64,000 bases of DNA from an uncultured Bacteroidales bacterium (GTDB lineage: Bacteria > Bacteroidota > Bacteroidia > Bacteroidales > FEN-979): NCBI GenBank assembly GCA_903824935.1, contig CAIJYT010000078.1, positions 1 through 64,000 on the forward strand, given 5' to 3'. The notes under the pieces are model-generated. The model had not been told where the DNA came from and did no database searches. It worked only from the letters and a program-made list of their open reading frames with translations. How positions within the stretch are numbered: position 1 is the first letter of the stretch; every line of letters begins with the position of its first letter. Positions 35,046 to 64,000 of this stretch are shown here, in pieces. Both the position numbers and the translations under genes were made by a program.

Positions 35046-35367
35046 GGTTTTATTCTTTTATGATTTCAGGATTATTCAATAATTTGCGAACGTATTACGA
35101 ACAGCTAATTTAACAATTCTTTCGATCAATTCTTTGGACCGATGCGGTCGTACCGATGATAAAATAACCTGTATGCACTTAAGTTGATCCGGTGAAGATA
35201 TTGTTTAAAAAGGCTTATGATCGCAATGACAGGCATATGAAAAATAGTTGGTGGAAAAAGGTTGTTTATAGAAAAACAATATTATACCTTTATTGCATTA
35301 CAAACCGAACTGAAACCTATTGTTAGAGGTGCCAAAAGTAATATTGACCCAAAAGGGGAGGATTATC

Positions 35368-35397
35368 ATGGAACTGGTTATTTGCACAGGATATTAA
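35368..35397 (+). CDS. 9-codon upstream ORF (MELVICTGY) with a strong Shine-Dalgarno sequence, ending 1 nt before the rSAM start. A possible leader/uORF.
   Basis: aaaaggggaggattatcATGgaactggttatttgcacaggatatTAAcATG: GGAGG sits 6 nt upstream of the ATG. Such SD sequences are otherwise rare in this window. Confidence 0.25.
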   Translation: MELVICTGY

Positions 35398-35398
35398 C

Positions 35399-37027: not shown

Positions 37028-37037
37028 AACTGAATGT

Positions 37038-43588: not shown

Positions 43589-44734
43589 TCAGGGGTAAGT
43601 AAGGACCAGCTTCCCAATATGTTTTGAGCGCGACATGGCAGTGAGAGCTTCTTTTAGCTGTCGGACAGGGTAGGTCACGCAAGGAATCGGTTTAAAAAGC
43701 CCGGAATTGAAAAGCCCGGCGATTTCCGTGAGCTGTTCTTTCAGCCTGCGCGGCTGTACCAGGTACAACGAAATATCGAGTACCGAAAAAGTGATCCCTT
43801 TGCTGAATATGCCCATCGGCAGAAGGGTGTTCTTCGCGATATCCTTTTTATCGATCTGAATAAACCGGCCAAAGGGTGCAAGTATCTCCAATCCTTTCAT
43901 CATGCCATCTCCCGAAAGAGTATTCAAAACGACATCGACTCCCCTGCCCCTGGTCAGTTTCATGATTTCTTCGCCAAATAAAACGGACCTTGAATCCATC
44001 GGATGAACGATTCCTCTTTTTATAAGGAATTCCCTCTTCTCTGGTGATCCTGCCGTTGCATATATCCCTGCCTTCCTCCATTCTGCAATTTCCAGAGCGG
44101 CAAGGCCCACTCCGCCGGTAGCTGTATGGATCAGTACCGATTCGCCTTCAGCAATATTTGCCAGACGTATCAGGCCTGAGAATGCCGTGAGGAAAACCGT
44201 GGGGACCGCGGCTGCTTCTTCAAAGCTCAGTCCATGAGGTTTTGGTACAACCTGCAGTTGTGAAAGGTTGAAAACATTGATGAAATGGCTCCCAGGCTGC
44301 ACTTTCCCGTCGATGAAAGTGCCCGCCGACAAGGCAATTACCTCATCTCCTTCTTTGATCCCACTCACTCCGGGGCCCACACGGGTAACTACCCCGGCAT
44401 AATCGGAACCCATATTGGAAGGGACCCCGGGAGCCTCTGGGTATTGTCCCATGGCAATCATCAGGTCGCGGTAGTTCAGGCTTGCTGCAAGGGCTTTCAC
44501 CTGTACATAGCCTTCGGGAGGATCAGCGGCCTTTGCTTCCCTGAAGCTGATATTCAATGAACCGGGATTACCGGGATCGCAGGAAAAACAATCCGGCAGT
44601 TGTAACTCTTCCTTTTCCGGTTTATTCTGATTCCCGGCGCCCTTCGCAGAAGCATAGCCAAGACGTTTCAACAGCATCTCCTTCTGCTCAGGCGACAAAC
44701 CTGCAATTTTTTTCAGAAGTTCATCATTGTTCAT
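43589..44734 (-). CDS. Discrete (trans-acting) PKS-type enoyl reductase, MDR superfamily.
   Basis: Motifs VKALAASLNYRDLMIAMGQYP (PKS-ER LNFRD-type) and HTATGGVGLAALEIA (NADPH-binding), plus an N-terminal ~60-aa extension. Confidence 0.75.
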   Translation of the reverse strand: MNNDELLKKIAGLSPEQKEMLLKRLGYASAKGAGNQNKPEKEELQLPDCFSCDPGNPGSLNISFREAKAADPPEGYVQVKALAASLNYRDLMIAMGQYPEAPGVPSNMGSDYAGVVTRVGPGVSGIKEGDEVIALSAGTFIDGKVQPGSHFINVFNLSQLQVVPKPHGLSFEEAAAVPTVFLTAFSGLIRLANIAEGESVLIHTATGGVGLAALEIAEWRKAGIYATAGSPEKREFLIKRGIVHPMDSRSVLFGEEIMKLTRGRGVDVVLNTLSGDGMMKGLEILAPFGRFIQIDKKDIAKNTLLPMGIFSKGITFSVLDISLYLVQPRRLKEQLTEIAGLFNSGLFKPIPCVTYPVRQLKEALTAMSRSKHIGKLVLTYP

Positions 44735-53300: not shown

Positions 53301-55410
53301 CTCCGGTTTGTGATCTGAATACCTCCAGGACATTTTTCTCCGAACCCGGATTCACTTCAACGCACTGATTGCCATTTCCCGGCATTATTTTGCGCAGCGC
53401 TTGTTCCAGGCTTACAATGTCGGGCGAACCTGTAAGCAGGATACTGTAAAAAATATTATAGGCCGAAAGGCCAGGTTCAATTTGCTGGAGAAACCAGAGG
53501 GCTTTCTGGTTTTCCGATAAACCTGTTTGAAAGATGTCGTTTGACAAAGCTTCACGGGACTGATTTTGCTGTGACGCCATTTTGACCGTTGCCTGTTCGT
53601 TATCTGTGGCCCATTCTTTGTTTCGGTCCGATTCATCAAATATCTGAAGCCTTGCCAGTGCGCCGGGAGCAGGGTAGTCGAAAATGTGTCTGATTTGCAG
53701 ATCAATGCCTGTTTTCGCCCTGACATCCAAAACAATAGCGCCAGCTTTCAATGAATTACCGCCCAGGTCAAAGAAGTTATCATCCAAACCGATACCTTCG
53801 AGCCCAAGCACTTCTTCCCAGGTCCGGACTATCATTTTTTCGTTGGTAGTCGTGGGCGGCACTGCAGGATAACCTAAATCGGGCCGCTGAATTCCGGGAA
53901 GTGGAAGTGATTTGCGGTCAATCTTTCCATTTGGGAGTTGCGGAAGATGATCGAGTGTGATAAAAACCTCAGGTATCATATAATCAGGCAGGACGTGTAA
54001 CAGGATTTTACGCAGCTGGTCTACCGGCACTGAGTTGCCGGTTTTGAAAACCAGGTAGGCAACCAGTCGTTTCCCGTTTTGCTTCTCATCCACAACTTTT
54101 ACAATTGCCTGTTTCACCTCCGGGATGACAATAAGGGCAAGTTCGATTTCAGAAAGTTCGATACGAAACCCGCGTATTTTAACCTGTTGGTCTTTACGTC
54201 CGATAAAAATCAGTCTGCCCGATTGATCCTGCTTCACCAGATCGCCGGAGCGATAAACATTGATTGCCTCCTCTCCATTGAGTTTGAACGAAAAAAAAGT
54301 GGTCCCTGTGATTTCGGGCAGGTTCAGATAGCCCCTTGCAATGCCATCTCCGCTGGCAAGAAGTTCACCGGCAACGCCCTGGTCAACAGGATTCATGTCA
54401 TCGCCGACAATAAAAATAGTCGTTCCGTGAAGCGGTTTGCCGATATGGGCCGGTTCGCCGGGATATAACCTTGCTGCAGTAAGGTTTGCGGTTGCTTCTG
54501 TTGGGCCGTAAAGATTCCAAAGCTGAAGAGAAGGTAAAGTGCTGAAGCTTCTTTTCAGAAGATCATCTGTAACAGCTTCTCCCGAAAGATAAACACATGA
54601 GGGCGCCGACGATCTGATGTTTATACCCTCTGGGGTGTCTAAATAGTTTAAGATTTCAGACCAAAGCGTCGGTACACAGTATAAACCCATTCCCGGATGT
54701 GCTGAATACCATTGAAGCAGTTTTTCGGGTTGCCTTATTACCAAAGGATCAAGGATATGAAGGGTTTTTCCTGCCAGTAAGGTTGAAAAAAACTGCGTTA
54801 CAGCTGCCGCGAAAATAAAAGAGGATGTCAAGGGTAATGCGACCTGGCTTTCAGGCATTACCCATTGGCAAAACCAGTGGACATAATAATTCAGGTTTCG
54901 CTGTTCAATCATGACCCCTTTTGGATTGCCGGTGGAACCGGATGTGTACAGTATATAGGCAAGATCAGAAGCCTGAACCGGCTTAGCTTTTGGAATTCTT
55001 GTATTGGTAAGATTCTTCACTTCAGGCCAATCAGGAATGAATATTGGAGTTTGCCCGAAAGCCGGTATGTGCGATAATGAATTGTCGGTGATAACAAGCC
55101 TGGCGTCTGCATCCTTAAGAATATACCTGATCCGTTCTTCAGGAAAATTCGAAGAAAGAGGGATATAGGCAGCTCCGGATTTGAGCAAAGCAATAATCGA
55201 AATGGCAAGGTTAACTGAGGGGTATAAATTAATCCCGACCACACAGCCTGGGCCTATTCCCCATTCCTGTAACTGCCATGCCAGATTGGAGGAGAACTGA
55301 TCAAGCCTGCTGAAACTAATGCATTCATCCCGACAGATAATGGCTTCTGCATCAGGAAAAGCTTCCGATCTGAGAAAGATCTCCTCATGTATTGGAATAA
55401 ATCTGCTCAT
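50320..55410 (-). CDS. NRPS initiation + elongation module: A-T-C-A-T.
   Basis: A1 has YTSGSTGNPKGVMIEQ. T1 has FFDLGGNSLKAG. C has NQKALWFLQQ and IVHHSVFDGFS (HHxxxDG). A2 has FTSGSTGNPKGVMIRH and SINFDISFLE. T2 has FFEVGGHSLLLVRL. Confidence 0.9.
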   Translation of the reverse strand: MSRFIPIHEEIFLRSEAFPDAEAIICRDECISFSRLDQFSSNLAWQLQEWGIGPGCVVGINLYPSVNLAISIIALLKSGAAYIPLSSNFPEERIRYILKDADARLVITDNSLSHIPAFGQTPIFIPDWPEVKNLTNTRIPKAKPVQASDLAYILYTSGSTGNPKGVMIEQRNLNYYVHWFCQWVMPESQVALPLTSSFIFAAAVTQFFSTLLAGKTLHILDPLVIRQPEKLLQWYSAHPGMGLYCVPTLWSEILNYLDTPEGINIRSSAPSCVYLSGEAVTDDLLKRSFSTLPSLQLWNLYGPTEATANLTAARLYPGEPAHIGKPLHGTTIFIVGDDMNPVDQGVAGELLASGDGIARGYLNLPEITGTTFFSFKLNGEEAINVYRSGDLVKQDQSGRLIFIGRKDQQVKIRGFRIELSEIELALIVIPEVKQAIVKVVDEKQNGKRLVAYLVFKTGNSVPVDQLRKILLHVLPDYMIPEVFITLDHLPQLPNGKIDRKSLPLPGIQRPDLGYPAVPPTTTNEKMIVRTWEEVLGLEGIGLDDNFFDLGGNSLKAGAIVLDVRAKTGIDLQIRHIFDYPAPGALARLQIFDESDRNKEWATDNEQATVKMASQQNQSREALSNDIFQTGLSENQKALWFLQQIEPGLSAYNIFYSILLTGSPDIVSLEQALRKIMPGNGNQCVEVNPGSEKNVLEVFRSQTGAQAVSLNTALDHARGMADRPFTLEQGKPFRFILYRLDDDRHLLAFIVHHSVFDGFSFRIFLNQLSKFYDQAHKGNDSFLQVPLASYSQFCSEEKIYMSSLQYETDRSYWQKQLANAPTFFELPTDYTRPELPTHEGGQARRTIHPLLKSRLKSLSDDMGASMFMTCLGAFSILLFRHTGRKDILIGTPVSNRLNKSYLSLIGYFVNTMLVRTNIDPGMAFRDWMGLLRNQILEGLEHSRFPFTRAGEVLKTDRIPGINPFFQIMFAYHETDWKFSTHTGLSGFAREEFFGRSKFDIFSEIFDIGDTAEIVLTFSSRLYHPGTIEILLDHFIQILEEISVSPATRIHAINLISQEERNLLVYKWNETTYENQFNGNVADMVCRQAEITPGVPALVSRQEVITYREMARRTEVITGNLRRLGVRNGVPVGIHLENSPNMVMCIMAVFRAGGIYIPLDPYYPDERLRYVIEKTRVRFLIVDEEHMSWKRELSEQNIPVSELLNESFQLKPLAGVEPDIPGNLAYIMFTSGSTGNPKGVMIRHDSLLNFMVWMKTELKISSSDTFLSTTSINFDISFLELFTPLISGASLVLEKRSELQAPEKIEALLNEMKVNTVQFVPSGLKALCDAGVLRRARFLKNIISGGEKLSRSLQEQIFSESEGVLINLYGPTEATVYMACWHCRRNSPLRMVPIGFPIYNAAFYILDEKLEPVPVGVTGEIYLGGKVLADGYFEDKAQTDSRFLQDPFLQGKGSRIYKTGDLGRYMYDGSVEFLGRTDHQVKVRGFRIELGEVESNILRFPAVRGVVVYAREHGEEDIRLTAYIVQEPSASLNEKDLREFLRLHLPAYMIPGHFIIAPAIPTLPNGKTDFKALINLRPSVPDVPEFIHRHINETEASLIELWKEILDHGAFTPHDNFFEVGGHSLLLVRLKELIAEKLKEEVSIVDLFHYPTIRSLAAFLRKDKPVHPYIDVEKRVAMRNRNIKQQNRKRITPDNNQP

Positions 55411-55448
55411 GGATGATTACCTCAATAGGGTAAAGTAAAAGTCCTGTC

Positions 55449-56978
55449 TTATTTAATATTAAATACCCAGGGATTGTAGTTTACGAGCTGATCGGACGAT
55501 GTCGGGAAGTCGCCAATAAGGTATTTCAGGGTGATTATCCTGGTCATGATGCCCAGGCGGCCTGCTTCCACATTCTTAAGAGCTGTATTATAGTCCATAT
55601 ACGTATTAATCATGTTGATCTGTGTGGAAGCTCCCATTTTAAATTTTCGAACTTCACTCTGGAATGTTTTTTTCTCAATTTCAGCAAGCCTGATCTGATT
55701 TTTAAATAAGGGTAAGAGATTACCAAGATCGCTCAAGAGTTTAGTTACTTGCATTTTGGAATCAAATCTCACTTGTTCAAGCTGGGTTTTATTAAATTCG
55801 TAAGATGACAGTTTTGAAAGGTAGTCTCCTTTCCGCTCTTCATTTTTAAAAGGTAAATTATATAACAAGGTAAGATTCACGGAAGAGCCCGGTGATCCGC
55901 TTTTTATGGTTTGGGTAAATTCAGAAACAGGCAGGCCATTGGTCATACCAAAATACATATAGTTAAGATTAAGATTAAATTCATTTAGCTTGTTGTGCTT
56001 GGCCCCGTTCATTGCAATCTGTGAGGAGGAAGTAAGCAATTCCTGGCTTTTGTAATAAGGCGTGTTTACAATCATTGAATCAAGGTTCCTGGAAACATAG
56101 GCTGAATATTTTTCCCAGGGAAAGGATAAAGGATTGGGAAGTGAATCAAGAAAAACCGGGAGGGCGTTTGCCTTGAATGTTCCTTTGGCGCCAATTGAAG
56201 TGACCAGGTCATATAATGAATTGACGATATCATTGCGCGCCAATGAAAATTGCTGGGCAATGCTTAGTTGGTAGGCCTCGGCACGAAAGGTTTCCACTTT
56301 CGCCAATTGTTCATCCAATATCATCGTTTTAATATCGTTAAGGTACTGGCGTGCATCGTTATCAGCATCTTTCAGTATCCTGAAGACCGCAACGGAAGAG
56401 TATGAACTATAGTAGGATGATAATGTGTTTTTAATAAACTGGCAGATCTCATCGGTAAACGAAACATTCTGTGCTTTGTTCATCAGCAGCGTTGAAAGGT
56501 ATGTAACATTCTCGGAGTTATACCGGCCAAGATCGCGTAAAAGCGGAATTGAAATTCCTGCCCATATCCCCGATTCATTTACTGCCAAAAATTGAGTCTC
56601 AAAAACTCCCGGAACTCCCATCTGAATCTGCTGTTCCGTGAAAAGCCTCACTCCCGAATAAAACTTTATCCCCAAACGGGTTGGAATTGAGACTTGTCCG
56701 GTAAAAGTATATGAATCAATGAAGGACCAGGTTGGATCAGTACCATATAACCCGTTAAAGTTGAATGAGAGAACCGGATTAAAAAAGCCTTTGGTGCTGA
56801 TTAACTGACCGAAGCTTTCACCCACAACATGTCTTTTTAATTTGATGTTGAAATTTGCGTCAAGGCCGATTTGTAATACTTTAAAGGTTGACAGTGAATC
56901 ATAATTAATTATCGGCTGGCTTTTTACAACAAGTGTTCCTGCTGCAAGAAGGATGATGATCAGAATTTTCTTTTTCAT
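55449..56978 (-). CDS. TolC-family outer-membrane efflux channel.
   Basis: 509 aa with a signal peptide MKKKILIIILLAAGTLVVKS and a two-repeat OEP-like organisation. The stop is only 38 nt upstream of the NRPS start. Confidence 0.65.
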   Translation of the reverse strand: MKKKILIIILLAAGTLVVKSQPIINYDSLSTFKVLQIGLDANFNIKLKRHVVGESFGQLISTKGFFNPVLSFNFNGLYGTDPTWSFIDSYTFTGQVSIPTRLGIKFYSGVRLFTEQQIQMGVPGVFETQFLAVNESGIWAGISIPLLRDLGRYNSENVTYLSTLLMNKAQNVSFTDEICQFIKNTLSSYYSSYSSVAVFRILKDADNDARQYLNDIKTMILDEQLAKVETFRAEAYQLSIAQQFSLARNDIVNSLYDLVTSIGAKGTFKANALPVFLDSLPNPLSFPWEKYSAYVSRNLDSMIVNTPYYKSQELLTSSSQIAMNGAKHNKLNEFNLNLNYMYFGMTNGLPVSEFTQTIKSGSPGSSVNLTLLYNLPFKNEERKGDYLSKLSSYEFNKTQLEQVRFDSKMQVTKLLSDLGNLLPLFKNQIRLAEIEKKTFQSEVRKFKMGASTQINMINTYMDYNTALKNVEAGRLGIMTRIITLKYLIGDFPTSSDQLVNYNPWVFNIK

Positions 56979-57000
56979 TTATTAATCCTGTTAAACGATT

Positions 57001-59925
57001 TCATGCCAGCTGACGTTTTGTGAGTTCAGCAAAAAAACCATTTTTTTCAACAAGTTCTTTATAGCTTCCCTCTTCGATAAGCTGACCCTTGTCAAGAACA
57101 AAGATACGGTCGGCATTCATGATGGTACTAAGGCGGTGTGCTATAACAATGCGTGTCGCATTCAGCTTTTCGATACTTGCGCTTACGATCCCCTGGGTTT
57201 CATTGTCAAGAGCGCTGGTAGCCTCGTCGAATATGAAAATCCTGGGGTTGCGGATCAATGCCCTGGCAATGACGATTCGCTGTTGCTGGCCCCCCGATAA
57301 AGTATCGCCGCCCGGTGGCAGGATAGTATACATTTTGTTGGGGAGATTCATGATTTCATCAGCGCATCCAGCCATCCTGGCAGCTTTCCAGGCATCCTCT
57401 TCAGTGTACAACGATGAACCGGTGATATTGTAAAGTACGGTTCCCTGCATGATCCTGGAGTTTTGTAAAACTACCCCCAGCTGATCTCTGATCCCACGGA
57501 CATCGAGGTCTTTAAGTTCTTTATTATCGAAAAGAATGCTTCCAACGTTATATTTTTCAAATCCCAGCAACAATCTTACCAGTGTTGATTTTCCCGAACC
57601 TGAGCTGCCGGTGATTGCTACAAACTGTCCCGGACGAATAGACATGTTAAGTTCTTTCAGGCTCCAGTCAGGAGTGTCGGGGTATTTAAAACTCAGCTGG
57701 GTGATTTCGATACCGCCGCTAAGTTCACCAGGATCGGGTTTCTCGAGAAGGTCTTCCGTATCGGCCTCCAATATTGGTTGAAACAGCTGATAGGTGGGCT
57801 TGATATTAAGTAAGGGGACTGTTACCATGAAGGTTTGAATCATTGCACCCTGAAAGCTGAGATAAGCGCTGTTGAATGCTACAAAATCACCGATACCGAA
57901 CCCGGGCAATCCCGATTTAAAAATTGAATACACCCTGATAAAGATCAGCATGGAAGCGAGAACCGGAAAAGTAGCAGAAAAGATACTTGCAATCATAAGA
58001 AGAGTACGTTTCTGCCGGTAATGGTCCTTTTGCTGCGCATATCGGTCGGCCCATAGTGAAAAGACCTTTTCTTTACTCCCGGTAACCCTGATTTTGTTAA
58101 TTCCACGGATAGCCATCAGCAGGAAGCCCGAGATCATGGCATCCATGCGGCGCATGAATACCACATGTTTATATGCAAGAAGGCTTATAGTGAGTGTAAA
58201 TGCGGCGACAACGAGGCCCAGAAAAAGCGCAAGCAGGGCAAGTTTCAGGTCGTAATAGAAAAGCAGGGCAAGATAAAAGACAGAGAAGATTCCTGAAATC
58301 ATGGCGCCCAGGACCGTGGTGGACAGGGTGTCACGAATCCGTTCAATCCCCATACTTCGTTCAGCAAGGTTCCCAGGTGTGTAATTTCTGAAGAAATCGA
58401 CCTGAAGGGAGAGTATCCTGTCCCATAATGCTGATTGGAGTTTGAACCCTGCTTTCCCGGCCATACGGAGAACGGCGATGGATTTGGCAAAGTTCAGCAG
58501 CCCGATGGTTATCACGCAAATAACCATAATAGCTCCAATCTGCCAGAGTTCTTTAGTATCTCCGCCAGGGATGACAGTATTGAACACATAGCCGCCAACA
58601 ACCGGTATTACCAAAGCAAGTAAAGCGCCGATCACGCCGATCACTAAAAAACTCAGGATATCACGGTAGGTGAACTGAAGAGCAAAACTGATGAGATCCT
58701 TGCCCTGAAGTTTGCCTTTTGGGAAAGGAGTGAAGAAACTATACGCCCTGGGTTCGAGGAGTTGTTGGACAGATTCGTCAACCAATTCTTTTTTACGATT
58801 TTTCAGATCAATCATCCAGTACTGAGTGCTGCCTTTGGCAATGAGGCCTACAGGGGTATTGCCGGCTTTTAGAAAACCAAGCATGGAGCCGGCATTATTG
58901 GTCCACCAGTGCGGTTCAAGCATTACACTCCTTGATCGGATGTTTGAAGCTCTGAGGATGTTCCAGAGGGAATCATGTTTACCGCTGATTCGGTTCCCGG
59001 GGTTAATGAATTCGATTTTCTCTCCCTTCCCGATCAGCTGACAGGTTTGGAGTAAAAGCATATTAGGAGTCGCCGGAATTGTTGGAATTCCTCCCTGGTT
59101 TTTATCATCAAAGAGATCATCAGTTACCTTGCCGGAAATGATAGACTTAAAGCGGTTCAATGCGCTTATCACTGCATTGGCTCTAAAGGCATATGAATCA
59201 TCCACATGAGTAAGTGACACTTTCTGCTCATCAGAATACAGATTCTGAAGAACGGTTATGATCAGTTCAGTAAACCCGAAAAACTGAGACAGGTAGAGAT
59301 CATTGGTAACGACCTGCTTTGTAGTATAAATGGTTTTTTGAACAGTAGCCCCAAAAGACATCCATAGATTTGAAGTAAGGGGAAGAAGTGTCAGTCCATT
59401 GGCAAGGGGATCGGCAAAGTTGTAATACATTGGCTTCAGTCCTGCCGATTCAACCCATAAAACTTCCTCCGGACCTGATGCACCGTAGCTTTTCACTGGA
59501 TCTGCTGAAAAAACAGGTGCTGCTTTGATCCCGTTTAAAAGGGGCATGGTCCCAAAGTGGTTCATTCCGTCAGAAACTCTGAGTAACCATTTATCAAAAA
59601 GAAAGGTGGCATAATCAGGATTTGCCGACACCAATCTGTTCAATGAACCTGAATCGAGAACTCCGATTGTACAATTTGTCAAGGCACAAATTATAATAGA
59701 CAGGGCGTCGCTTTCTTTGAAGCCGGGAATCAGAAACGGTGCGTTGATGCGGAAAAGGAACAATCGCCGGCCAGGTCCCGTGGGCAGTTTTTCAACATAA
59801 AAAATGTCAGCATCGCCAGCTTCAAGGTAAAAAGCTGCAGGAGAGGCACTATTCAGAGTAAGCACTTTATTGCTGGGCAACTGCTCGGTACGAGTATAAA
59901 AAGAAGAAATCACCTGCTGCTCCAT
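57001..59925 (-). CDS. ABC exporter (TMD + NBD) with a ~410-aa N-terminal cytoplasmic extension.
   Basis: Walker A GSSGSGKST, signature LSGGQQQRIVIARAL, Walker B IFIFDEATSALD. Six predicted TM helices begin around aa 420. The long N-terminal domain resembles the regulatory extensions of peptide-exporter ABC partners. Confidence 0.75.
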   Translation of the reverse strand: MEQQVISSFYTRTEQLPSNKVLTLNSASPAAFYLEAGDADIFYVEKLPTGPGRRLFLFRINAPFLIPGFKESDALSIIICALTNCTIGVLDSGSLNRLVSANPDYATFLFDKWLLRVSDGMNHFGTMPLLNGIKAAPVFSADPVKSYGASGPEEVLWVESAGLKPMYYNFADPLANGLTLLPLTSNLWMSFGATVQKTIYTTKQVVTNDLYLSQFFGFTELIITVLQNLYSDEQKVSLTHVDDSYAFRANAVISALNRFKSIISGKVTDDLFDDKNQGGIPTIPATPNMLLLQTCQLIGKGEKIEFINPGNRISGKHDSLWNILRASNIRSRSVMLEPHWWTNNAGSMLGFLKAGNTPVGLIAKGSTQYWMIDLKNRKKELVDESVQQLLEPRAYSFFTPFPKGKLQGKDLISFALQFTYRDILSFLVIGVIGALLALVIPVVGGYVFNTVIPGGDTKELWQIGAIMVICVITIGLLNFAKSIAVLRMAGKAGFKLQSALWDRILSLQVDFFRNYTPGNLAERSMGIERIRDTLSTTVLGAMISGIFSVFYLALLFYYDLKLALLALFLGLVVAAFTLTISLLAYKHVVFMRRMDAMISGFLLMAIRGINKIRVTGSKEKVFSLWADRYAQQKDHYRQKRTLLMIASIFSATFPVLASMLIFIRVYSIFKSGLPGFGIGDFVAFNSAYLSFQGAMIQTFMVTVPLLNIKPTYQLFQPILEADTEDLLEKPDPGELSGGIEITQLSFKYPDTPDWSLKELNMSIRPGQFVAITGSSGSGKSTLVRLLLGFEKYNVGSILFDNKELKDLDVRGIRDQLGVVLQNSRIMQGTVLYNITGSSLYTEEDAWKAARMAGCADEIMNLPNKMYTILPPGGDTLSGGQQQRIVIARALIRNPRIFIFDEATSALDNETQGIVSASIEKLNATRIVIAHRLSTIMNADRIFVLDKGQLIEEGSYKELVEKNGFFAELTKRQLA

Positions 59926-59926
59926 A

Positions 59927-62098
59927 TCAGTTGAGTTTTACCAAATTATAATAAAGTCCCTGCTCATCGCTGATCATCTCATCGTGTGTACCCCGTTGAA
60001 CGACTTTTCCTTTATCCAAAACAATGATTTCATCGCAATCACGGATCGTACTGAGCCGGTGGGCAATAATGAGTGTAGTACATCCCCTGCGGCGAATATT
60101 GTTGTCGATGACCTTTTCGGTGTTGGCATCTAATGCGCTGGTTGCTTCATCCATCACAAGGATAGTCGGGTTTACGACTAATGCACGTGCAATTTCTATG
60201 CGCTGACGCTGGCCTCCGCTAAGGTTGTTTCCTGCGTTGAGGAGAATGCCGGTATATCCGCCGGGCCTCGATGAGATGACGTCATGAATACATGCATCCC
60301 TGGTCGATTGGATAATATCGGGAGTTCCGATCGTATTATTCCACATCGTAATATTGTCGTTTACGGTTCCCTTGAAAAGGAATATTTCCTGGTCTACCAG
60401 AGAGACAGAGTTCCTGATGACATCCTCTGGAAATGAATTCCGTTCATGTCCATCGAAAAGGATTTCACCGGCCCAGGGATGGTATAGGCCAGCAACCAAT
60501 TTGGCCAGAGTCGATTTCCCTGAGCCTGAACCTCCAACGAGGGCAATACGTTTGCCAGGTTCAACATGAAGTGAAAAATTTTCAATCAGAGGCTCGCTAA
60601 AGCGGTCATATCCAAAAGTAACATTCTTAAAATCGAGGAATCCGTGTAATTTGGAATTGGAAGGTATTAAGGATCCGGGGTTGTCGTTAGCCTCATTTTT
60701 AAAATAAACATCTTCATTGGTCGATAATGCGTCCTGAATCGTGTCGATATTACTCTTTGCTCCCTGGAGGTCACTGCCCATCGAAACTACCGCCTTAACA
60801 GGGCCTGTAAAATTTGACATCAGGCTCTGGAAGGCGATAAAGACACCTATTGTCATCTCCCCGTAGATAACAAGCAGTCCGCCTAAAGTCAGCAGAATAA
60901 TGGTATTCAGGTTTGACAGAAAATCGGGTAAGGCGGCCAGCAGGTTAGAAGTCACATTCAGCTTTTGATCAAAGACCACTGCATTGGAAAGATTTCCCGA
61001 CCAGAGGCCATAAAAATCGTTTTCGGAGCCCGTGGCTTTAATGGTTTCAATTTGTTCAAGCCCGACTCCTGCAGTGCTGAAGGTACGTTGATTTCGCTCA
61101 AATAGCAACTGGTTGAGGGTGGATCTTTTTTCAGAAATTATCCGAAGAAATAACAGGTTAACAAGTATTACGGTAACGCCGATTACTGTAAGAAGTAAAT
61201 TATACTGGATCATAACGATCGCGTAAAACAAAACCGTAATGATACTTGAGACCGTCATTGTAAGTTCCGTTGAAAGCAGCGTGGCAAGATCATCATTGAG
61301 CTGAACGCGTTTGAAGATCTCTCCGGGTTGACGCGTCATAAAGAAGCGGATAGGCAGTTTCAATATATGCATCAGCAGTTTCGAAGACTCAACGATGGCA
61401 AGGCGTAATTCAATCTTGACAAGAATTTTTTGCTGCAAAAAAGTAAGTACTCCGTTAAAAAGGAAAAGTCCCGCGATGAGAACAATCATGGGCTTAAAGT
61501 AAGGCTGTTGTAAGCCAATAATATCGTCAAAAAAAAGTTTATTCAAGCCTGCCATAATGATAGCAGGAATGATCAGTATAGTACCACATATCATCACGAA
61601 TACAAGGTCAAACCGGCTTGGTTTTATTCGTGTCCATACCTTGTTGTAAAAACCATTCTGCTTTTTATCAGGTTTGAACGCGGGTCCGGGAGTAATAATC
61701 AAAACCGTTTTGTTATAGATTTTTTCCAGCTCCTGCCTACTGAGGATCTTGTTTCCTTCATGAGTATCGTTCAACAGGAAACCGTCGCTGGTATAACCGG
61801 TTAAAACGCTGAAATTTCCGCCTTGAACTCCAATGATCGCGGGAAGCTGAAGCGATTTCAGTTCAGCCACGGAACAATTTACAACTTCCGACTTAAATCC
61901 ATGGCTGATGGCGACCTTCATCAAACGGCTGGCTGGAATTATTGAATTATCCGAAATTCCACATTCCTGGTTCAGAGCATCCTTTGCCGGGTAACAATGG
62001 TAATAAGAAAAAACCATTGTGAGTGCGATCGCACCGGATTCATTTTCGCCAATCTGGAGAATTACCGGAACCTTTTTTTTAATATGCTCATCTCTCAT
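59927..62098 (-). CDS. ABC exporter with an N-terminal C39-like domain whose catalytic residues are substituted (Cys->Ser, His->Asn).
   Basis: N-terminus LQIGENESGAIALTMVFSYY (versus canonical Q....DCGxACL) and GVQGGNFSVL (versus NHFVV). Walker A GGSGSGKST, LSGGQRQRIEIARAL, ILVMDEATSALD. Begins 1 nt after the upstream ABC gene. Confidence 0.8.
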   Translation of the reverse strand: MRDEHIKKKVPVILQIGENESGAIALTMVFSYYHCYPAKDALNQECGISDNSIIPASRLMKVAISHGFKSEVVNCSVAELKSLQLPAIIGVQGGNFSVLTGYTSDGFLLNDTHEGNKILSRQELEKIYNKTVLIITPGPAFKPDKKQNGFYNKVWTRIKPSRFDLVFVMICGTILIIPAIIMAGLNKLFFDDIIGLQQPYFKPMIVLIAGLFLFNGVLTFLQQKILVKIELRLAIVESSKLLMHILKLPIRFFMTRQPGEIFKRVQLNDDLATLLSTELTMTVSSIITVLFYAIVMIQYNLLLTVIGVTVILVNLLFLRIISEKRSTLNQLLFERNQRTFSTAGVGLEQIETIKATGSENDFYGLWSGNLSNAVVFDQKLNVTSNLLAALPDFLSNLNTIILLTLGGLLVIYGEMTIGVFIAFQSLMSNFTGPVKAVVSMGSDLQGAKSNIDTIQDALSTNEDVYFKNEANDNPGSLIPSNSKLHGFLDFKNVTFGYDRFSEPLIENFSLHVEPGKRIALVGGSGSGKSTLAKLVAGLYHPWAGEILFDGHERNSFPEDVIRNSVSLVDQEIFLFKGTVNDNITMWNNTIGTPDIIQSTRDACIHDVISSRPGGYTGILLNAGNNLSGGQRQRIEIARALVVNPTILVMDEATSALDANTEKVIDNNIRRRGCTTLIIAHRLSTIRDCDEIIVLDKGKVVQRGTHDEMISDEQGLYYNLVKLN

Positions 62099-62127
62099 AA
62101 CTAGGCTCGATTGATTGGTATGGAGTA

Positions 62128-63378
62128 CTACTCGAAAAATGATTTAAAGATCGGAATGATATAGTCAATAGGTGCTTTTTCCCTTACCCGTATGGAGGCC
62201 CTGCAAAGTGTACCGGTATTGATGGCGTATGGCGGTCCCGTTTTATTCGACCATTCATATCCGCTTTTTGTGCTAGGATCGGGGATAAGAGCGATTTTAA
62301 CACGGTAAGTCGGGCCCTGTTTTTCGATCAGCTCAACGAGATCAGGGTTCCCTAATTCATCAAGGATCGAGCTTGTATTGGAAACAAAATGATTAACCTC
62401 CACTACCTCACCCATCAACCATCCATAAAGATTTTCATTCACGGTAAAAGGTTTTACCATAACCCTCATACCTGGTCCAACAACCGCGTTTGAATTAAAC
62501 GGGATAAAAAGGTCGAGCAAATGATTTCGGGAATTTTCCAGATCTTCAACCACCATCATGCGGGTACCGGCATTTACATAATCGCCGCTGGTCACTGATT
62601 TATCAATGATCATGCCATCAACAGGGCTGTTGATGATGGTCTGTCTGTTATACTCATCCTGGAGATCATTAATTTTTTTCTTGAGAATCTGGATCTGGCC
62701 ACTGTAATCTTCCTGCTTGAATTGCCTGTCATAGTTCCAGGATTGCTGATCCAGCTGATTGGTTTTTACCTGTTGTTCGAGTTGGGTACGCTGATTATGG
62801 GCATCAGACAAATCATTTTTTGCATTAACGAAGTTCTCCCTGGTGGCAAGTCCTTTATCCCAGAGATCCTGTTGTTGCTGCATCTTCAGCTCAAAAAAAT
62901 TAATCAGATCCTGAACATGCAACAATTCTCTTTTCAGGCGTTCTTCCTCCAGACTATAAAATCTCATTTTACTAGGATAATCTCGTGTGTCCCTGGTCAG
63001 GAGCAAAGAATCCTGAAATCCCAGCACATCGAGTTCTGCATACAGTTCAACCAACTGATGCCTGAGCTGTGGTTGAACAAGTTTAATCAGAACATCTCCC
63101 GCATTGACTTTCTCACCTAGTTCATACCTGACTTCTTCAACCCCCCCGGGATAGAGGGCAATAATTCCGTTAAGGCCTTTCTTGCTGATTATTTCACCTA
63201 AACCGTCAATTTCTTGTGGAATGCTTCCGAATATTCCCCAGATAATTGTGATTATGGTAAGAAGCCCTAAAGCAGAAAGAGAGATCCAATACCTAGGGCG
63301 GGTAATTTTCAACATTTGGTTTATTTCCTCAGGGTTGCCTGCTGCTCCTGTAGGTTGCGATTTTTCTGCCTTGTCCAT
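62128..63378 (-). CDS. HlyD-family membrane-fusion/adaptor protein for the paired ABC exporters (the track start is TTG 63402; the first ATG is at 63378).
   Basis: N-terminal TM helix (ISLSALGLLTIITIIWGIF), a long coiled coil (QQQDLWDKGLATRENFVNAKNDLSDAHNQRTQLEQQ) and a C-terminal beta-barrel/lipoyl-like region. Confidence 0.75.
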   Translation of the reverse strand: MDKAEKSQPTGAAGNPEEINQMLKITRPRYWISLSALGLLTIITIIWGIFGSIPQEIDGLGEIISKKGLNGIIALYPGGVEEVRYELGEKVNAGDVLIKLVQPQLRHQLVELYAELDVLGFQDSLLLTRDTRDYPSKMRFYSLEEERLKRELLHVQDLINFFELKMQQQQDLWDKGLATRENFVNAKNDLSDAHNQRTQLEQQVKTNQLDQQSWNYDRQFKQEDYSGQIQILKKKINDLQDEYNRQTIINSPVDGMIIDKSVTSGDYVNAGTRMMVVEDLENSRNHLLDLFIPFNSNAVVGPGMRVMVKPFTVNENLYGWLMGEVVEVNHFVSNTSSILDELGNPDLVELIEKQGPTYRVKIALIPDPSTKSGYEWSNKTGPPYAINTGTLCRASIRVREKAPIDYIIPIFKSFFE

Positions 63379-63423
63379 AATAAAATATATTGCTGGTAAC
63401 AAAAAACCTGCAAAGGCGGGTTG

Positions 63424-63460
63424 TTGAACACAACCCGCCGTGAACTATTAATCTCTCCCT
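63424..63460 (-). terminator. Terminator-like GC hairpin (ggcgggttgt / acaacccgcc, 10-bp stem) followed on the minus strand by TTTGCAGGTTTTTTG. It lies between the upstream ORF and the hlyD-like gene.
   Basis: Plus strand: aaaaaacctgcaaaggcgggttgttgaacacaacccgccg. On the minus strand this gives stem-loop + TTTGCAGGTTTTTT. It could be an attenuator or terminator separating a small upstream transcript from the exporter operon. Confidence 0.35.
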
Positions 63461-63533
63461 GTAAGTTCCCTGGAGCTTGCTTCAGAATATAGAGCCGGGG
63501 CTTGCAAGGGTGTTAATACCGATGAATGAAAAC

Positions 63534-63989
63534 CTACTTCTCGTGTTTATGAAAAGCCATTCCTTTCTTTATAATACTCTTCTTCCATTCCCCATTTTCG
63601 TCCAGATGGGATGTTTCGTGGTGCTTCTTGACGATGGCTGCTATCTTATCGGGCATTTTTGTTGCTTTTCCAGGGATGCCGCCTGATGCTGGTCCTTTTG
63701 GTAGAGAAGGGCTAGAACTCTTTTTTTGATTTTCCATAATTGTTGAGTTTTGATTTGTAGGAATAAATTGGGATTGTACTACTTCTTGTGAAGAATTGTG
63801 TTTATTAAGTTGGATCTTTTTGATGATTAAAATAATTCCATAAACGAACATGAATGTCGTTGCATAGCTCCATATCTGTGTTATTAAGCTGATTTTATTG
63901 AAACCTTCCACACCATAAAGATGAATCAGCGTGATCCTTAAAAAAATATCAGAAAAGTCACGAAACGCCAGAAACATAGTCAGAAACAT
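63534..63989 (-). CDS. Hypothetical protein in an AT-rich segment. Either a membrane protein that continues beyond the window edge, or a 67-aa peptide starting at the internal Met (~63734).
   Basis: The ORF track gives 151 aa with hydrophobic N-terminal segments and a Lys/His-rich C-terminal tail (MENQKKSSSPSLPKGPASGGIPGKATK...KKHHETSHLDENGEWKK...HKHEK). There is no in-frame stop before the window edge at 64000. Local GC is visibly lower than the neighbouring genes. Confidence 0.3.
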   Translation of the reverse strand: MFLTMFLAFRDFSDIFLRITLIHLYGVEGFNKISLITQIWSYATTFMFVYGIILIIKKIQLNKHNSSQEVVQSQFIPTNQNSTIMENQKKSSSPSLPKGPASGGIPGKATKMPDKIAAIVKKHHETSHLDENGEWKKSIIKKGMAFHKHEK

Positions 63990-64000
63990 GAAATATTTAA

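What the first reader, a model, noticed from the sequence alone, without database searches (positions are those of the whole stretch)
57001..62098. Two different ABC exporters in tandem (one with a C39-like domain, one with a ~410-aa N-terminal extension) plus HlyD and TolC, an arrangement typical of RiPP/bacteriocin export, attached to an NRPS-PKS
The pairing of a peptidase-domain ABC, an ABC with an N-terminal regulatory-like extension and an HlyD adaptor recalls the three-component exporters described next to nitrile-hydratase-leader or Nif11-type RiPP precursors. Here no obvious precursor is seen and the downstream genes are assembly-line enzymes. Either the product class is unexpected for this exporter type, or an unrecognised ribosomal peptide is also involved.
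Basis: inference. Interest (0 to 1): 0.55.

Follow-up and report, generated by a model that had tools for sequence, protein, structure and literature searches.

The report
Peptidase-dead RiPP-type exporter serving an NRPS-PKS
The two ABC transporter genes belong to the exporter family normally used for ribosomal peptide antibiotics, but in this lineage the leader-cutting protease is inactivated and the pump sits in one conserved operon with an outer-membrane channel, a non-ribosomal peptide/polyketide assembly line and a previously unnoticed small protein.

Summary
On the minus strand, 59927-62098 encodes a C39-domain ABC half-transporter (ABC1). 57001-59925 encodes an ABC half-transporter with a ~420-aa N-terminal extension (ABC2). 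A HlyD adaptor and a TolC-like protein flank them.

The resemblance to NHLP/Nif11 RiPP exporters is real homology. TIGR03794 and TIGR03797 pass their cut-offs. TIGR03796 is the top hit for ABC1 but falls below its cut-off. The ABC2 extension has a CRP/cNMP-binding fold followed by a second, cryptic C39-like fold.

This is nevertheless not an ordinary RiPP exporter. In about 25 related loci, every exporter followed by an OMF and NRPS-PKS has Ser in place of the catalytic Cys, and the His is usually lost. These loci come from Bacteroidales, Saprospiraceae, Flavobacteriaceae and one Desulfobulbaceae MAG. All 28 classical relatives examined keep Gln-Cys-His-Asp. GG-leader precursors lie near 15 of 34 classical loci and near 0 of 26 of this clade. 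The clade is monophyletic.

A clade-specific small protein (63534-63737) heads the operon and is followed by a conserved hairpin.

Most likely this is a peptidase-dead descendant of the RiPP exporter, co-opted to export the assembly-line product. The role of the small protein is open. I rate it a new variant of a known kind, of moderate interest.

The parts
63738..64000 (-). 3' part of a VC0807-family membrane-protein ORF. It runs off the window and is here in frame with the small ORF.
   Evidence: The L010 orthologue (214 aa) hits NF041646 VC0807_fam at 88.2 bits against a cut-off of 65. On the 153-kb contig of this genome the gene is called as one 294-aa product. The genes are separate in L010, L013 and L019. 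The gene is present only in the Bacteroidales sub-clade.
63534..63737 (-). Clade-specific small protein, 67 aa here and 67-171 aa in relatives. It has a conserved N-terminus (MENQKK..P.PPKGP), an expandable Pro/Thr-rich linker and a conserved His/Lys-rich C-terminus (HH...HLDxNGxWK...KG).
   Evidence: Alignment A4 of 16 loci. A profile built from it hits only NRPS-PKS-linked loci among 5406 small ORFs. Only 6 database hits, all unnamed. P0125 again sits directly upstream of HlyD-ABC1-ABC2-OMP-NRPS. dN/dS is 0.11-0.47. No Pfam, NCBIfam, NHLP or Nif11 hit.
63415..63439 (-). Conserved 10-bp GC-rich stem-loop with a T-rich tail, between the small ORF and HlyD. It is a candidate attenuator or mRNA-stabilising hairpin.
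   Evidence: RNAalifold on 13 Bacteroidales loci gives a 10-pair stem, with 6 pairs kept through changes on both sides in at least one sequence. The simple terminator scan did not flag it. No Rfam match.
62128..63378 (-). HlyD-type periplasmic adaptor of the NHLM family (416 aa).
   Evidence: TIGR03794 256.7 bits against a cut-off of 156.2. Pfam HlyD_3 / HlyD_D23.
59927..62098 (-). ABC1: C39-like domain + type IV ABC transmembrane domain + NBD (723 aa).
   Evidence: Pfam domains. TIGR03796 is the best hit at 812.8 bits, below the cut-off of 853.3. Walker A, Q-loop, signature, Walker B-Glu and H-loop are canonical.
61685..62071 (-). C39-like domain of ABC1 with a degenerate active site: Gln15 kept, Cys replaced by Ser21, His replaced by Asn95, Asp111 kept.
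   Evidence: Residue-by-residue alignment to LahT150 (6mpz) and ComA (8hf4). Multi-locus table. The catalytic roles of Q11/C17/H96/D112 in ComA are taken from PMC8277102.
57001..59925 (-). ABC2: CRP-like domain + linker + cryptic C39-like domain + TMD + NBD (974 aa).
   Evidence: TIGR03797 774.6 bits against a cut-off of 709.4, with the model covering aa 291-973. Pfam TMD and NBD. NBD motifs are canonical.
59551..59925 (-). N-terminal CRP/cNMP-binding-like beta-barrel with C-helix of ABC2 (aa ~1-125).
   Evidence: AF2 model mbca07ee45401 has pLDDT of about 73-94 (mostly above 85) over aa 1-120. Foldseek against PDB gives CRP, CooA, CprK and PrfA effector domains at E~1e-6, probability 1.00. 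No Pfam hit in this protein itself. The homologous region in L044 and L067 hits cNMP_binding weakly.
58666..59070 (-). Juxtamembrane C39-like fold of ABC2 (aa 286-420) without catalytic residues.
   Evidence: AF2 model m95a777cd527a has pLDDT 88.5 and pTM 0.82. The Foldseek top hits are the HlyB C39-like domain (8dck, 7sgr, 3zua; E 1e-3, probability 1.00, TM~0.55), the ComA peptidase domain and PCAT1. The profile-profile sequence signal is weak.
55449..56978 (-). TolC-like outer-membrane factor with a signal peptide (509 aa).
   Evidence: Pfam OEP 27.6 bits against a cut-off of 22. Orthologues carry OEP hits. It is present after ABC2 in every NRPS-PKS-linked locus and absent from that position in classical NHLM loci.
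50320..55410 (-). NRPS, A-T-C-A-T (1696 aa).
   Evidence: Pfam. Conserved after the OMF in all NRPS-PKS-linked loci.
44724..50306 (-). PKS module, KS-AT-KR-DH-ACP (1860 aa).
   Evidence: Pfam. Gene calls.
43589..44734 (-). Zinc-dependent dehydrogenase, a probable trans-acting enoylreductase.
   Evidence: Pfam ADH_N / ADH_zinc_N. Conserved in L074 and L075.
39438..43577 (-). NRPS termination module, C-A-T-TE.
   Evidence: Pfam. Conserved in L074, L075 and L076.
38734..39441 (-). Sfp-type phosphopantetheinyl transferase, the last gene of the conserved cassette.
   Evidence: Pfam ACPS. In L074 and L075 the genes beyond it are unrelated housekeeping genes.

Best explanation
Proposed machine. This is an envelope-spanning tripartite ABC export system.
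- ABC1 (C39-like domain-TMD-NBD) and ABC2 (CRP-like domain-C39-like domain-TMD-NBD) form a heterodimeric inner-membrane exporter.
- It works with an NHLM-type HlyD adaptor and its own TolC-like outer-membrane factor.
- These genes lie in one tightly spaced, apparently co-transcribed gene set with an NRPS-PKS-NRPS assembly line, a trans-ER and a PPTase.

Origin. The pump descends from the exporter of NHLP/Nif11-leader RiPPs. In this monophyletic lineage the Cys-His dyad of the leader peptidase has been lost, an OMF gene has been added, and the pump has become a fixed part of the assembly-line cassette.

Inferred function. The system no longer cleaves double-glycine leaders. It exports the cassette's hybrid peptide-polyketide product across both membranes, giving secretion and self-protection. 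The CRP-like domain would act as a cytoplasmic ligand-sensing gate, as the cNMP domain does in HetC. The two dead C39-like domains would be kept as docking or regulatory modules. The clade-specific small protein encoded first in the operon would be an abundant accessory partner (adaptor, chaperone or regulator) rather than a leader-bearing precursor.

Shown here: homology, domain folds, loss of the active site, conserved linkage, and absence of GG-leader genes.
Inferred: heterodimer formation, the identity of the substrate, ligand gating, and the role of the small protein.
For: - Family assignment.
- Dead dyad in the window protein.
- Perfect partition across loci. Every examined exporter followed by OMF+NRPS+PKS has Gln-Ser-x-Asp(Asn/Ser). 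All 28 classical loci have Gln-Cys-His-Asp.
- TIGR03796 scores are 751-862 bits for this clade and 1014-1167 for classical members, against a cut-off of 853.3.
- ABC1 of the clade is monophyletic in an NJ tree.
- GG-leader precursors occur within about 10 kb in 15 of 34 classical loci and 0 of 26 clade loci, Fisher p=4e-5. None is found among the window's intergenic ORFs with NCBIfam.
- The linkage survives rearrangement. L076 has the order NRPS-TE, PPTase, small ORF, NRPS, HlyD, ABC1 (Ser), ABC2, OMP.
- The cassette occurs in Bacteroidales, Lentimicrobiaceae, Saprospiraceae, Flavobacteriaceae and one Desulfobulbaceae MAG.
- Cassette boundaries, small ORF to PPTase, are defined by the unrelated flanks in L074 and L075.
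- Gene gaps are at most 38 nt.
- CRP-like and C39-like folds in ABC2.
- HetC precedent for a cNMP-type domain regulating a PCAT: PMC10986499.
- HlyB precedent for a non-cleaving C39-like domain: PMC8277102.
Against: - No experiment or metabolite links the pump to the NRPS-PKS product. The substrate is inferred from gene linkage only.
- Exporters carrying C39 or C39-like domains are, in every characterised case, peptide or protein exporters. Here two such domains are retained under selection, with an invariant Ser at the former Cys position. That hints at a retained peptide-binding function.
- A cassette-specific small protein has no signal peptide and carries a Pro/Thr-rich linker, which is more typical of extracytoplasmic proteins (my reading). 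It is encoded exactly where RiPP and bacteriocin operons put their structural gene, followed by a conserved hairpin.
- Most loci are MAGs. The NJ tree has no support values.
- Only about 10 kb per side was screened for precursors, and the rest of this genome could not be searched.
Confidence: 0.55

Rival explanations
1. The small conserved protein is the cargo, or a co-cargo. It would be a leaderless or uncleaved ribosomal product that docks on the dead C39-like domain(s), as RTX substrates dock on the HlyB CLD, and is secreted in one step through the HlyD/OMF conduit. The NRPS-PKS product would be secreted with it, bound by it or attached to it.
For: - The small ORF is specific to this cassette. 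It is found in every clade locus with upstream sequence except, by profile, L012 and L076.
- It has no signal peptide and a Pro/Thr-rich linker of variable length.
- It is under purifying selection but evolves faster than HlyD: dN/dS 0.47 against 0.14 in the closest pair.
- It is the first gene of the operon and is followed by a conserved hairpin. That layout resembles structural genes of lantibiotic and bacteriocin operons (the comparison is from my own knowledge).
- Two C39-like folds are retained despite the loss of catalysis.
- CLDs bind unfolded protein substrates in HlyB (PMC8277102).
Against: - There is no similarity to any known leader or secretion signal.
- The double glycine in the window copy is not conserved.
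- In L076 the positionally equivalent ORF is not significantly similar, and it sits upstream of the NRPS rather than of HlyD.
- L012 has only a Pro-rich ORF lacking the C-terminal domain.
- Nothing shows that the protein leaves the cell.
- This model does not explain why the pump is invariably tied to the assembly line.
Confidence: 0.25
2. It is an ordinary NHLP/Nif11 RiPP exporter. Its precursors and maturases lie elsewhere in the genome, and its position next to the NRPS-PKS is incidental.
For: The best HMM hits are to the NHLM equivalogs. Databases name the orthologues 'NHLP bacteriocin export ABC transporter'. Haft et al. note that precursors are not always adjacent to the transport cluster (PMC2887384).
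Against: - The catalytic Cys and His are lost throughout the clade.
- ABC1 is below the TIGR03796 cut-off.
- The linkage to OMF and NRPS-PKS is conserved across orders and phyla and survives rearrangement.
- 0 of 26 clade loci have a GG-leader ORF nearby, against 15 of 34 classical loci.
Confidence: 0.04
3. It is a general multidrug or detergent-type efflux pump. It would be co-located with, but not specific for, the assembly-line product.
For: Tripartite ABC/MFP/OMF pumps often have broad specificity (general knowledge). Both NBDs are canonical.
Against: - Scores to generic families fall far below their cut-offs and below the NHLM scores. Examples are MsbA at 277-315 bits and SmdB at 181-194 bits.
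- There is no MacB/FtsX-type permease.
- Strict co-inheritance with the NRPS-PKS, including in the rearranged L076 locus, argues for a dedicated role.
Confidence: 0.08

Closest known systems
NHLP/Nif11 RiPP three-gene export cluster (TIGR03794 HlyD-like, TIGR03796 ABC with peptidase, TIGR03797 ABC); Haft, Basu & Mitchell 2010, PMC2887384
   Same: The three proteins occur in the same order (HlyD, ABC1, ABC2). Each gives its best HMM hit to the corresponding model. It is the sister clade in the ABC1 tree. ABC2 shares the N-terminal CRP-like and C39-like regions with classical members.
   Different: The catalytic Cys is replaced by Ser and the His is lost in ABC1. ABC1 scores under the equivalog cut-off. 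A dedicated OMF gene is present. There are no NHLP/Nif11/GG-leader genes nearby. The exporter is fixed inside an NRPS-PKS operon, and a clade-specific small protein is present.
HetC of Nostoc PCC 7120, a 'long-type' PCAT (cNMP-binding domain + C39 + TMD + NBD); PMC10986499
   Same: ABC2 has the same domain order: CRP/cNMP-like fold, C39 fold, TMD, NBD. In HetC the cNMP-type domain binds ppGpp and is required for function, which is a precedent for ligand gating.
   Different: The HetC peptidase is catalytically active and essential. The C39-like fold of ABC2 lacks the catalytic residues. No ligand is known for the CRP-like domain here, and Pfam cNMP_binding does not detect it.
HlyB/HlyD/TolC type 1 secretion system with a C39-like domain (CLD); PMC8277102, PDB 3zua/7sgr/8dck
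   Same: It is a tripartite ABC/MFP/OMF system whose C39-fold domain has lost the catalytic Cys and does not cleave its substrate. The ABC2 juxtamembrane domain gives its best structural match to the HlyB CLD.
   Different: HlyB is a homodimer, and its score here is far below its cut-off (TIGR01846 295-400 bits against 725). No RTX or C-terminal-signal substrate gene is present. Here the pair is heteromeric and carries two different CLDs and a CRP-like domain.
PCAT1, ComA and LahT peptidase-containing ABC transporters (PDB 4ry2, 8hf4, 6mpz)
   Same: ABC1 aligns over its full length (E 1e-72 to 1e-83). Its N-terminal domain aligns with the LahT and ComA protease domains.
   Different: The catalytic Cys is replaced by Ser and the His by Asn. 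These are homodimeric Gram-positive-type pumps with no adaptor or OMF.

Membership tests
NHLM (NHLP/Nif11) RiPP export system | Adaptor subunit matches TIGR03794 above its curated cut-off | tested here: met
   256.7 bits against 156.2.
NHLM (NHLP/Nif11) RiPP export system | Non-peptidase ABC subunit matches TIGR03797 above its curated cut-off | tested here: met
   774.6 bits against 709.4, aa 291-973.
NHLM (NHLP/Nif11) RiPP export system | Peptidase ABC subunit matches TIGR03796 above its curated cut-off | tested here: not met
   812.8 bits against 853.3. Clade relatives score 751-862 and classical controls 1014-1167.
NHLM (NHLP/Nif11) RiPP export system | Catalytically competent C39 leader peptidase (Gln/Cys/His/Asp) | tested here: not met
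   The window has Gln-Ser-Asn-Asp. Ser is invariant in the clade. All 28 classical loci have Gln-Cys-His-Asp.
NHLM (NHLP/Nif11) RiPP export system | Co-occurrence with NHLP (TIGR03793) or Nif11 (TIGR03798) precursors | tested here: not met
   None in the 64-kb window, with a positive control in L018 at 110 bits. 0 of 26 clade loci against 15 of 34 classical loci. The genome outside the window could not be searched.
Peptidase-containing ABC transporter (PCAT/AMS) | N-terminal C39 domain with a Cys-His-Asp triad that cleaves double-glycine leaders | tested here: not met
   The fold and homology are present, but Cys and His are substituted. Activity itself cannot be tested here.
HlyB-type T1SS (CLD-containing) | C39-like domain lacking the catalytic Cys, plus an MFP and a TolC-like OMF | tested here: met
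HlyB-type T1SS (CLD-containing) | Membership of the HlyB subfamily (TIGR01846), with an RTX or C-terminal-signal substrate encoded nearby | tested here: not met
   TIGR01846 gives 400 bits (ABC1) and 295 bits (ABC2) against a cut-off of 725.55. No RTX-like gene appears in the annotated window.
HetC-like long PCAT | cNMP-binding-type domain N-terminal to a C39 domain, TMD and NBD in one chain | tested here: met
   ABC2 has a CRP-like fold at aa 1-125, a C39-like fold at aa 286-420, and TMD and NBD. This holds at fold level only. Pfam cNMP_binding is not detected in this protein.
HetC-like long PCAT | Active cysteine peptidase; nucleotide (ppGpp/cNMP) binding | not testable with these tools
   No catalytic residues are evident in the ABC2 C39-like region. 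Ligand binding needs biochemistry.
MacAB/DevBCA-type tripartite ABC efflux | MacB/FtsX-type permease with a separate or fused ATPase | tested here: not met
   Both subunits carry the type IV exporter domain PF00664. No FtsX or MacB_PCD hit was found.

The most novel reading that the evidence does not exclude
The cassette-specific small protein would be a new kind of ribosomal partner for a peptidase-dead RiPP-type exporter. It has a conserved N-terminus, an expandable Pro/Thr linker and a His-rich C-terminal domain, and it lacks a signal peptide. In this reading it is recognised without cleavage by the Ser-variant C39-like domain(s). It is then either secreted as the carrier or receptor of the NRPS-PKS product, or is itself joined to that product. 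Either way the cassette would be a ribosomal/non-ribosomal hybrid system.
Probability: 0.15. Interest if true: 0.8.

Novelty: new variant of a known kind. Interest (0 to 1): 0.5.

Why it matters
1. Annotation. Public annotation names these proteins 'NHLP bacteriocin export' subunits. Genome-mining tools could therefore report a RiPP where there is none. A one-residue diagnostic (Ser instead of Cys in the xxECGxx motif) together with a following OMF gene separates the two kinds of exporter.

2. Evolution. This is a clear natural case of a leader-cleaving peptide exporter being re-purposed for a non-ribosomal pathway. The now-inactive C39 folds and the CRP-like sensor domain are kept, which is informative for how PCAT-type pumps recognise and gate substrates.

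3. Family description. The 'non-peptidase' TIGR03797 subunit contains a cryptic C39-like fold. This revises the original description of the family.

4. Natural products. The 10-gene cassette is widespread in uncultured freshwater Bacteroidales and present in at least one cultured Flavobacteriaceae strain. It specifies an unknown peptide-polyketide and an uncharacterised small protein, both open to experiment.

Tried and rejected
- Pfam and NCBIfam on ABC2 aa 1-420 gave no hit even at E<=5. The fold had to be obtained by AF2 and Foldseek.
- Profile-profile comparison (hhalign) of ABC2 aa ~296-420 with C39 domains was in register but weak (probability 6.7%, P=0.005). I therefore did not rely on it and used the structure prediction instead.
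- I considered the two tandem radical SAM genes and the TylF-like methyltransferase (33972-38678) as possible RiPP-type maturases of the cluster, since they suggested a proteusin-like system. I rejected this. They give only generic B12-rSAM hits, lie in a GC-poor stretch on the other strand, and are absent beside the cassette in L074 and L075.
- The stand-alone C39-like peptidase at 24833-25579 could be a trans-acting leader protease. It lies 32 kb away next to an SPFH gene and was not pursued.
- The 92-aa ORF of the rearranged locus L076 resembles the C-terminus of the small protein by eye, but it does not match the family profile (E>10). It is not counted as a member.
- The Pro-rich 82-aa ORF of L012 likewise does not match.
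- The sigma-70 promoter and simple terminator scans found no more sites than shuffled sequence and did not flag the hairpin. Bacteroidota promoters are not covered by that scan.
- Rfam gave no match in 55000-64000.
- Six full-text literature searches found no report of an NHLM-type exporter inside an NRPS-PKS cluster or of the Ser-variant C39 domain. Absence from that library is not proof of absence.


Full report
OBSERVATION. The finding's coordinates are exact. On the minus strand, 59927-62098 encodes a 723-aa protein with Peptidase_C39 (aa 10-138), ABC_membrane and ABC_tran domains (ABC1). 57001-59925 encodes a 974-aa protein whose ABC_membrane domain starts only at aa 427 (ABC2). Upstream lies a HlyD-type adaptor (62128-63378). 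Downstream lies a 509-aa signal-peptide protein with a weak but above-threshold OEP/TolC hit (55449-56978). An NRPS (A-T-C-A-T), a PKS module (KS-AT-KR-DH-ACP), an ER-like dehydrogenase, an NRPS termination module (C-A-T-TE) and a PPTase follow. Gaps between these nine genes range from -11 to 38 nt, and ABC1 and ABC2 are 1 nt apart. The identical locus is present on several independent metagenome contigs, the longest 153 kb. The nearest species representative is an uncultured freshwater Bacteroidales MAG (L019, ABC2 92% identical).

IS IT THE RiPP-TYPE EXPORTER? By homology, yes.
- HlyD hits TIGR03794 (NHLM_micro_HlyD) at 256.7 bits against a cut-off of 156.2. The generic type I HlyD model gives 64 bits.
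- ABC2 hits TIGR03797 at 774.6 bits against 709.4. HlyB gives 295 bits.
- ABC1 hits TIGR03796 at 812.8 bits, against 400 for HlyB. That is below the curated cut-off of 853.3.

These three models were defined by Haft et al. (2010) as the transport cluster that phylogenetically profiles with NHLP and Nif11 precursors (PMC2887384).

THE N-TERMINAL EXTENSION OF ABC2. Sequence models see nothing in aa 1-420, even at E<=5. An AlphaFold2 model built on 11 homologous N-termini is confident for aa 1-125 (pLDDT about 73-94, mostly above 85). That part is a beta-barrel followed by a long helix. Foldseek against the PDB returns the effector domains of CRP, CooA, CprK and PrfA (E~1e-6, probability 1.00, about 130 aligned columns). 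The homologous region of two classical cyanobacterial NHLM ABC2 proteins is weakly recognised by Pfam cNMP_binding: L044 at 27.2 bits against a gathering score of 27.5, and L067 at E=0.004. Whether it binds a nucleotide was not tested.

The stretch just before the membrane domain (aa 286-420) is conserved in all family members. It was modelled separately with pLDDT 88.5 and pTM 0.82. Its best structural matches are the C39-like domain of HlyB (8dck, 7sgr, 3zua; E~1e-3, probability 1.00, TM~0.55), followed by the ComA and PCAT1 peptidase domains. ABC2 is thus built like the 'long-type' PCAT HetC (cNMP domain-C39-TMD-NBD; PMC10986499), but with a catalytically empty C39 fold. The original description of TIGR03797 as lacking the peptidase domain holds for catalysis but not for fold.

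THE PEPTIDASE OF ABC1 IS DEAD. Residue-level alignment with the LahT protease domain (6mpz) and with ComA (8hf4) was examined. It places Ser21 where the catalytic Cys sits (ENESGA against LECGAA and MDCGVA). It places Asn95 where the catalytic His sits (GGNFSVL against NFNHFVVL). The oxyanion Gln and the Asp are kept. The catalytic roles of Gln11, Cys17, His96 and Asp112 in ComA, and the precedent of non-cleaving C39-like domains in HlyB-type systems, are summarised in PMC8277102.

COMPARATIVE GENOMICS. A scan of one genome per GTDB species with the ABC2 N-terminal alignment returned 53 loci. Further loci came from contig look-ups. They fall into two sets.

Set A (about 25 loci):
- HlyD-ABC1-ABC2 is followed by an OMF, the A-T-C-A-T NRPS and the PKS.
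- ABC2 is at least 52% identical to the window protein.
- The hosts are many Bacteroidales MAGs, a Lentimicrobiaceae MAG, a Saprospiraceae MAG, a cultured Pseudotenacibaculum strain and one Desulfobulbaceae MAG.

Set B (34 loci):
- HlyD-ABC1-ABC2 occurs without an OMF or an NRPS.
- ABC2 is 26-42% identical to the window protein.
- The hosts are cyanobacteria, Chloroflexota, Acidobacteriota, Firmicutes and others.

The active site partitions perfectly between the sets. Every set A ABC1 examined has Gln-Ser at the first two positions. The former His position is Tyr, Asn, Lys or Gly, with His retained once. The fourth position is Asp, Asn or Ser. All 28 set B proteins have Gln-Cys-His-Asp. TIGR03796 scores are 751-862 bits in set A and 1014-1167 in set B. 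In a neighbour-joining tree of ABC1, the 23 set A sequences form one clade beside the classical clade (no support values).

An exhaustive HMMER search with the window's C39-like domain was run against 1.84 billion cluster representatives. Among the best 150 it found 131 with Cys and 16 with Ser at that position. One of the most divergent Ser-type hits, P0234, lies in a rearranged cassette: NRPS-TE, PPTase, a 92-aa ORF, NRPS, HlyD, ABC1, ABC2 (960 aa), OMP, O-methyltransferase. The linkage to the assembly line therefore persists when gene order changes. This argues for function rather than inherited synteny.

PRECURSORS. In set B locus L018 the pump is followed by a GNAT and a 95-aa ORF. That ORF hits TIGR03793 (NHLP leader) at 110 bits and ends its leader in VAGG. 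This serves as a positive control. A jackhmmer search seeded with it was run over all 5406 ORFs of 40-140 aa in the window and 59 loci. It found 28 GG-leader precursors, all in set B: 15 of 34 loci against 0 of 26 in set A, Fisher p=4e-5. None of the 15 intergenic ORFs of the window matches any RiPP-precursor model of NCBIfam. The part of the genome outside the window could not be searched.

A short ORF lies directly upstream of HlyD in every set A locus with upstream sequence. It is at 63534-63737 (67 aa) in the window and is 67-171 aa elsewhere. Its features are:
- a conserved N-terminus (MENQKKRFIPSPPKGP);
- a Pro/Thr/Ala-rich linker of very variable length;
- a conserved His/Lys-rich C-terminal segment (HHKKFHLDxNGxWKPxLxEKGxKxMKKF);
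- a more divergent form (…YRDxNGKITCPV…) in the Flavobacteriaceae and L016/L072 branch, with P0125 bridging the two forms.

It has no signal peptide and no hit in Pfam or NCBIfam. A search of 5.8 billion proteins found only six unnamed database relatives. One of them again sits just upstream of HlyD-ABC1-ABC2-OMP-NRPS. A profile of the family hits only set A loci. dN/dS between relatives is 0.11-0.47, so it is a real coding gene. In the closest pair it evolves faster than HlyD (0.47 against 0.14).

In the Bacteroidales branch it is preceded by a VC0807-family membrane-protein gene. In this particular genome the two are one open frame.

Between the small ORF and HlyD lies a 10-bp GC-rich hairpin (63415-63439) with a T-rich tail. 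It is conserved in 13 loci, and six pairs are kept through double changes. Only about 35 nt separate the hairpin from the HlyD start codon. This suggests read-through transcription with attenuation or mRNA stabilisation. That layout is typical of structural genes in bacteriocin operons; the comparison is my inference. In L012 and L076 the positionally equivalent ORFs do not match the profile, so the protein is not strictly universal.

CASSETTE LIMITS. In two divergent relatives the genes after the PPTase are unrelated housekeeping genes, and the upstream flanks also differ. The conserved unit is therefore: small ORF, HlyD, ABC1, ABC2, OMF, NRPS, PKS, ER, NRPS-TE, PPTase. The two tandem radical SAM genes and the TylF-like methyltransferase next to it in the window are not part of it.

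HOW IT MOST LIKELY WORKS. Two kinds of step need to be kept apart.

Shown here:
- homology to the NHLM exporter;
- canonical ATPase motifs in both subunits;
- a dead peptidase dyad;
- a CRP-like fold and a second C39-like fold in ABC2;
- a dedicated OMF;
- strict, rearrangement-proof linkage to one type of NRPS-PKS;
- absence of GG-leader genes nearby.

Inferred:
- ABC1 and ABC2 form a heterodimeric inner-membrane exporter.
- Together with the adaptor and the OMF, it expels the assembly-line product in one step.
- Leader cleavage was lost because there is no leader.
- The CRP-like domain senses a cytoplasmic ligand, with HetC and ppGpp as the precedent.
- The C39-like folds survive as docking or regulatory modules, perhaps for the small protein.

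I put this at 0.55. The main rival (0.25) is that the small protein is itself cargo or co-cargo, recognised without cleavage as RTX proteins are by the HlyB C39-like domain. The retention of two C39 folds, the invariant Ser, the Pro/Thr-rich linker without a signal peptide, and the 'structural gene then hairpin' layout all speak for this. The lack of any known secretion signal, the imperfect universality of the ORF, and the unexplained obligatory tie to the assembly line speak against it. An ordinary RiPP exporter with distant precursors (0.04) and a generic multidrug pump (0.08) are poorly supported.

COMPARISON AND NOVELTY. The system works like a tripartite ABC exporter or type 1 secretion system, and it descends from the NHLM exporter family. 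It fails two defining features of that family: an active C39 peptidase and the equivalog cut-off for ABC1. It also fails a third as far as tested, namely nearby NHLP/Nif11 precursors. It is best filed as a new variant, a peptidase-dead, OMF-equipped, NRPS-PKS-dedicated sister clade, and not as a member. Six full-text searches found no description of it. Databases label the orthologues 'NHLP bacteriocin export ABC transporter'. Interest is moderate (0.5). A specialist would not be astonished that a biosynthetic cluster carries an ABC pump. The clean evolutionary switch, the cryptic C39 fold in the 'non-peptidase' subunit and the cassette-specific small protein are new and directly testable, and a cultured strain carries the cassette.

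CAVEATS.
- Nearly all loci are MAG contigs, and the Desulfobulbaceae case could be a binning error.
- The tree is distance-based without support values.
- The structure models rest on shallow alignments (11 and 14 sequences).
- Screening for precursors reached only about 10 kb on each side of each pump.
- No experimental data exist for any member.

Noticed in passing
window 35399-37027 and 37014-38678 (+), with 33972-35045 (-): Two tandem paralogous radical SAM genes of about 550 aa give only generic B12-binding rSAM matches. Beside them is a TylF-like methyltransferase. All lie in a GC-poor stretch (38-40%) directly next to the PPTase end of the cassette. They are not conserved there in relatives L074 and L075, so they are probably a separate, recently inserted unit of unknown substrate.
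   Followed up: partly
window 24833-25579 (+): A stand-alone C39-like cysteine peptidase (Pfam Peptidase_C39_2 and Peptidase_C39; weak PA2778-family hit) sits next to a 757-aa SPFH/Band-7 protein (25673-27946). It is 32 kb from the exporter, and no link to it was examined.
   Followed up: no
window 63534-64000 (-): In this genome the VC0807-family membrane-protein gene and the small ORF form one continuous reading frame. It is called as 294 aa on the 153-kb contig. In L010, L013, L019 and others a stop codon and about 36 nt separate them. This could be a natural fusion hinting that the two products interact, or simply a lost stop codon.
   Followed up: partly
window 50320-55410 (-), first A domain of the NRPS: Aligning the A4 core motif by eye gives 'FIFAAAVTQ', with Ala rather than Asp at Stachelhaus position 235. 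The other two A domains keep Asp. The starter unit is therefore probably not an alpha-amino acid. This was not checked with a specificity predictor.
   Followed up: no
L037 (JAFLKM010000090.1, Desulfobulbaceae MAG) and L038 (NZ_JBDKWF010000045.1, Pseudotenacibaculum sp. MALMAid0570): The same cassette, with the Ser-variant ABC1, occurs outside Bacteroidales. One case is in a different phylum (horizontal transfer or mis-binning). Another is in a cultured marine flavobacterium, which offers an experimental handle. In these loci, and in L014, L036 and L072, ABC2 is about 750 aa and lacks the CRP-like domain.
   Followed up: partly
L076 1-18086 (ENA ERZ27262661 k141_1249): This is a rearranged version of the cassette: NRPS C-A-T-TE, PPTase, a 92-aa ORF, NRPS A-T-C-A-T, HlyD, ABC1 (Glu-Ser-Lys-Asp), ABC2 (960 aa), OMP, O-methyltransferase. 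The 92-aa ORF ends in ...DWKAYYDRNKGYMKHFPG, which resembles the small-protein C-terminus by eye but does not match the family profile.
   Followed up: partly
L018 12845-14142: This classical NHLM exporter in a Desulfocucumaceae MAG is followed by a GNAT acetyltransferase and an NHLP precursor with a very short core (WCKNFSIDI). The layout recalls the fatty-acylated 'selidamide'-type RiPPs. It served only as a positive control here.
   Followed up: no
window 1-6369 (-) and 10429-18409 (+): Mevalonate-pathway genes (HMG-CoA reductase, a fused kinase/diphosphomevalonate decarboxylase-like protein) lie with a UbiA prenyltransferase. Separately there is a bacterial alpha-2-macroglobulin gene followed by a PBP1C-type penicillin-binding protein. 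Both look like ordinary housekeeping arrangements.
   Followed up: no
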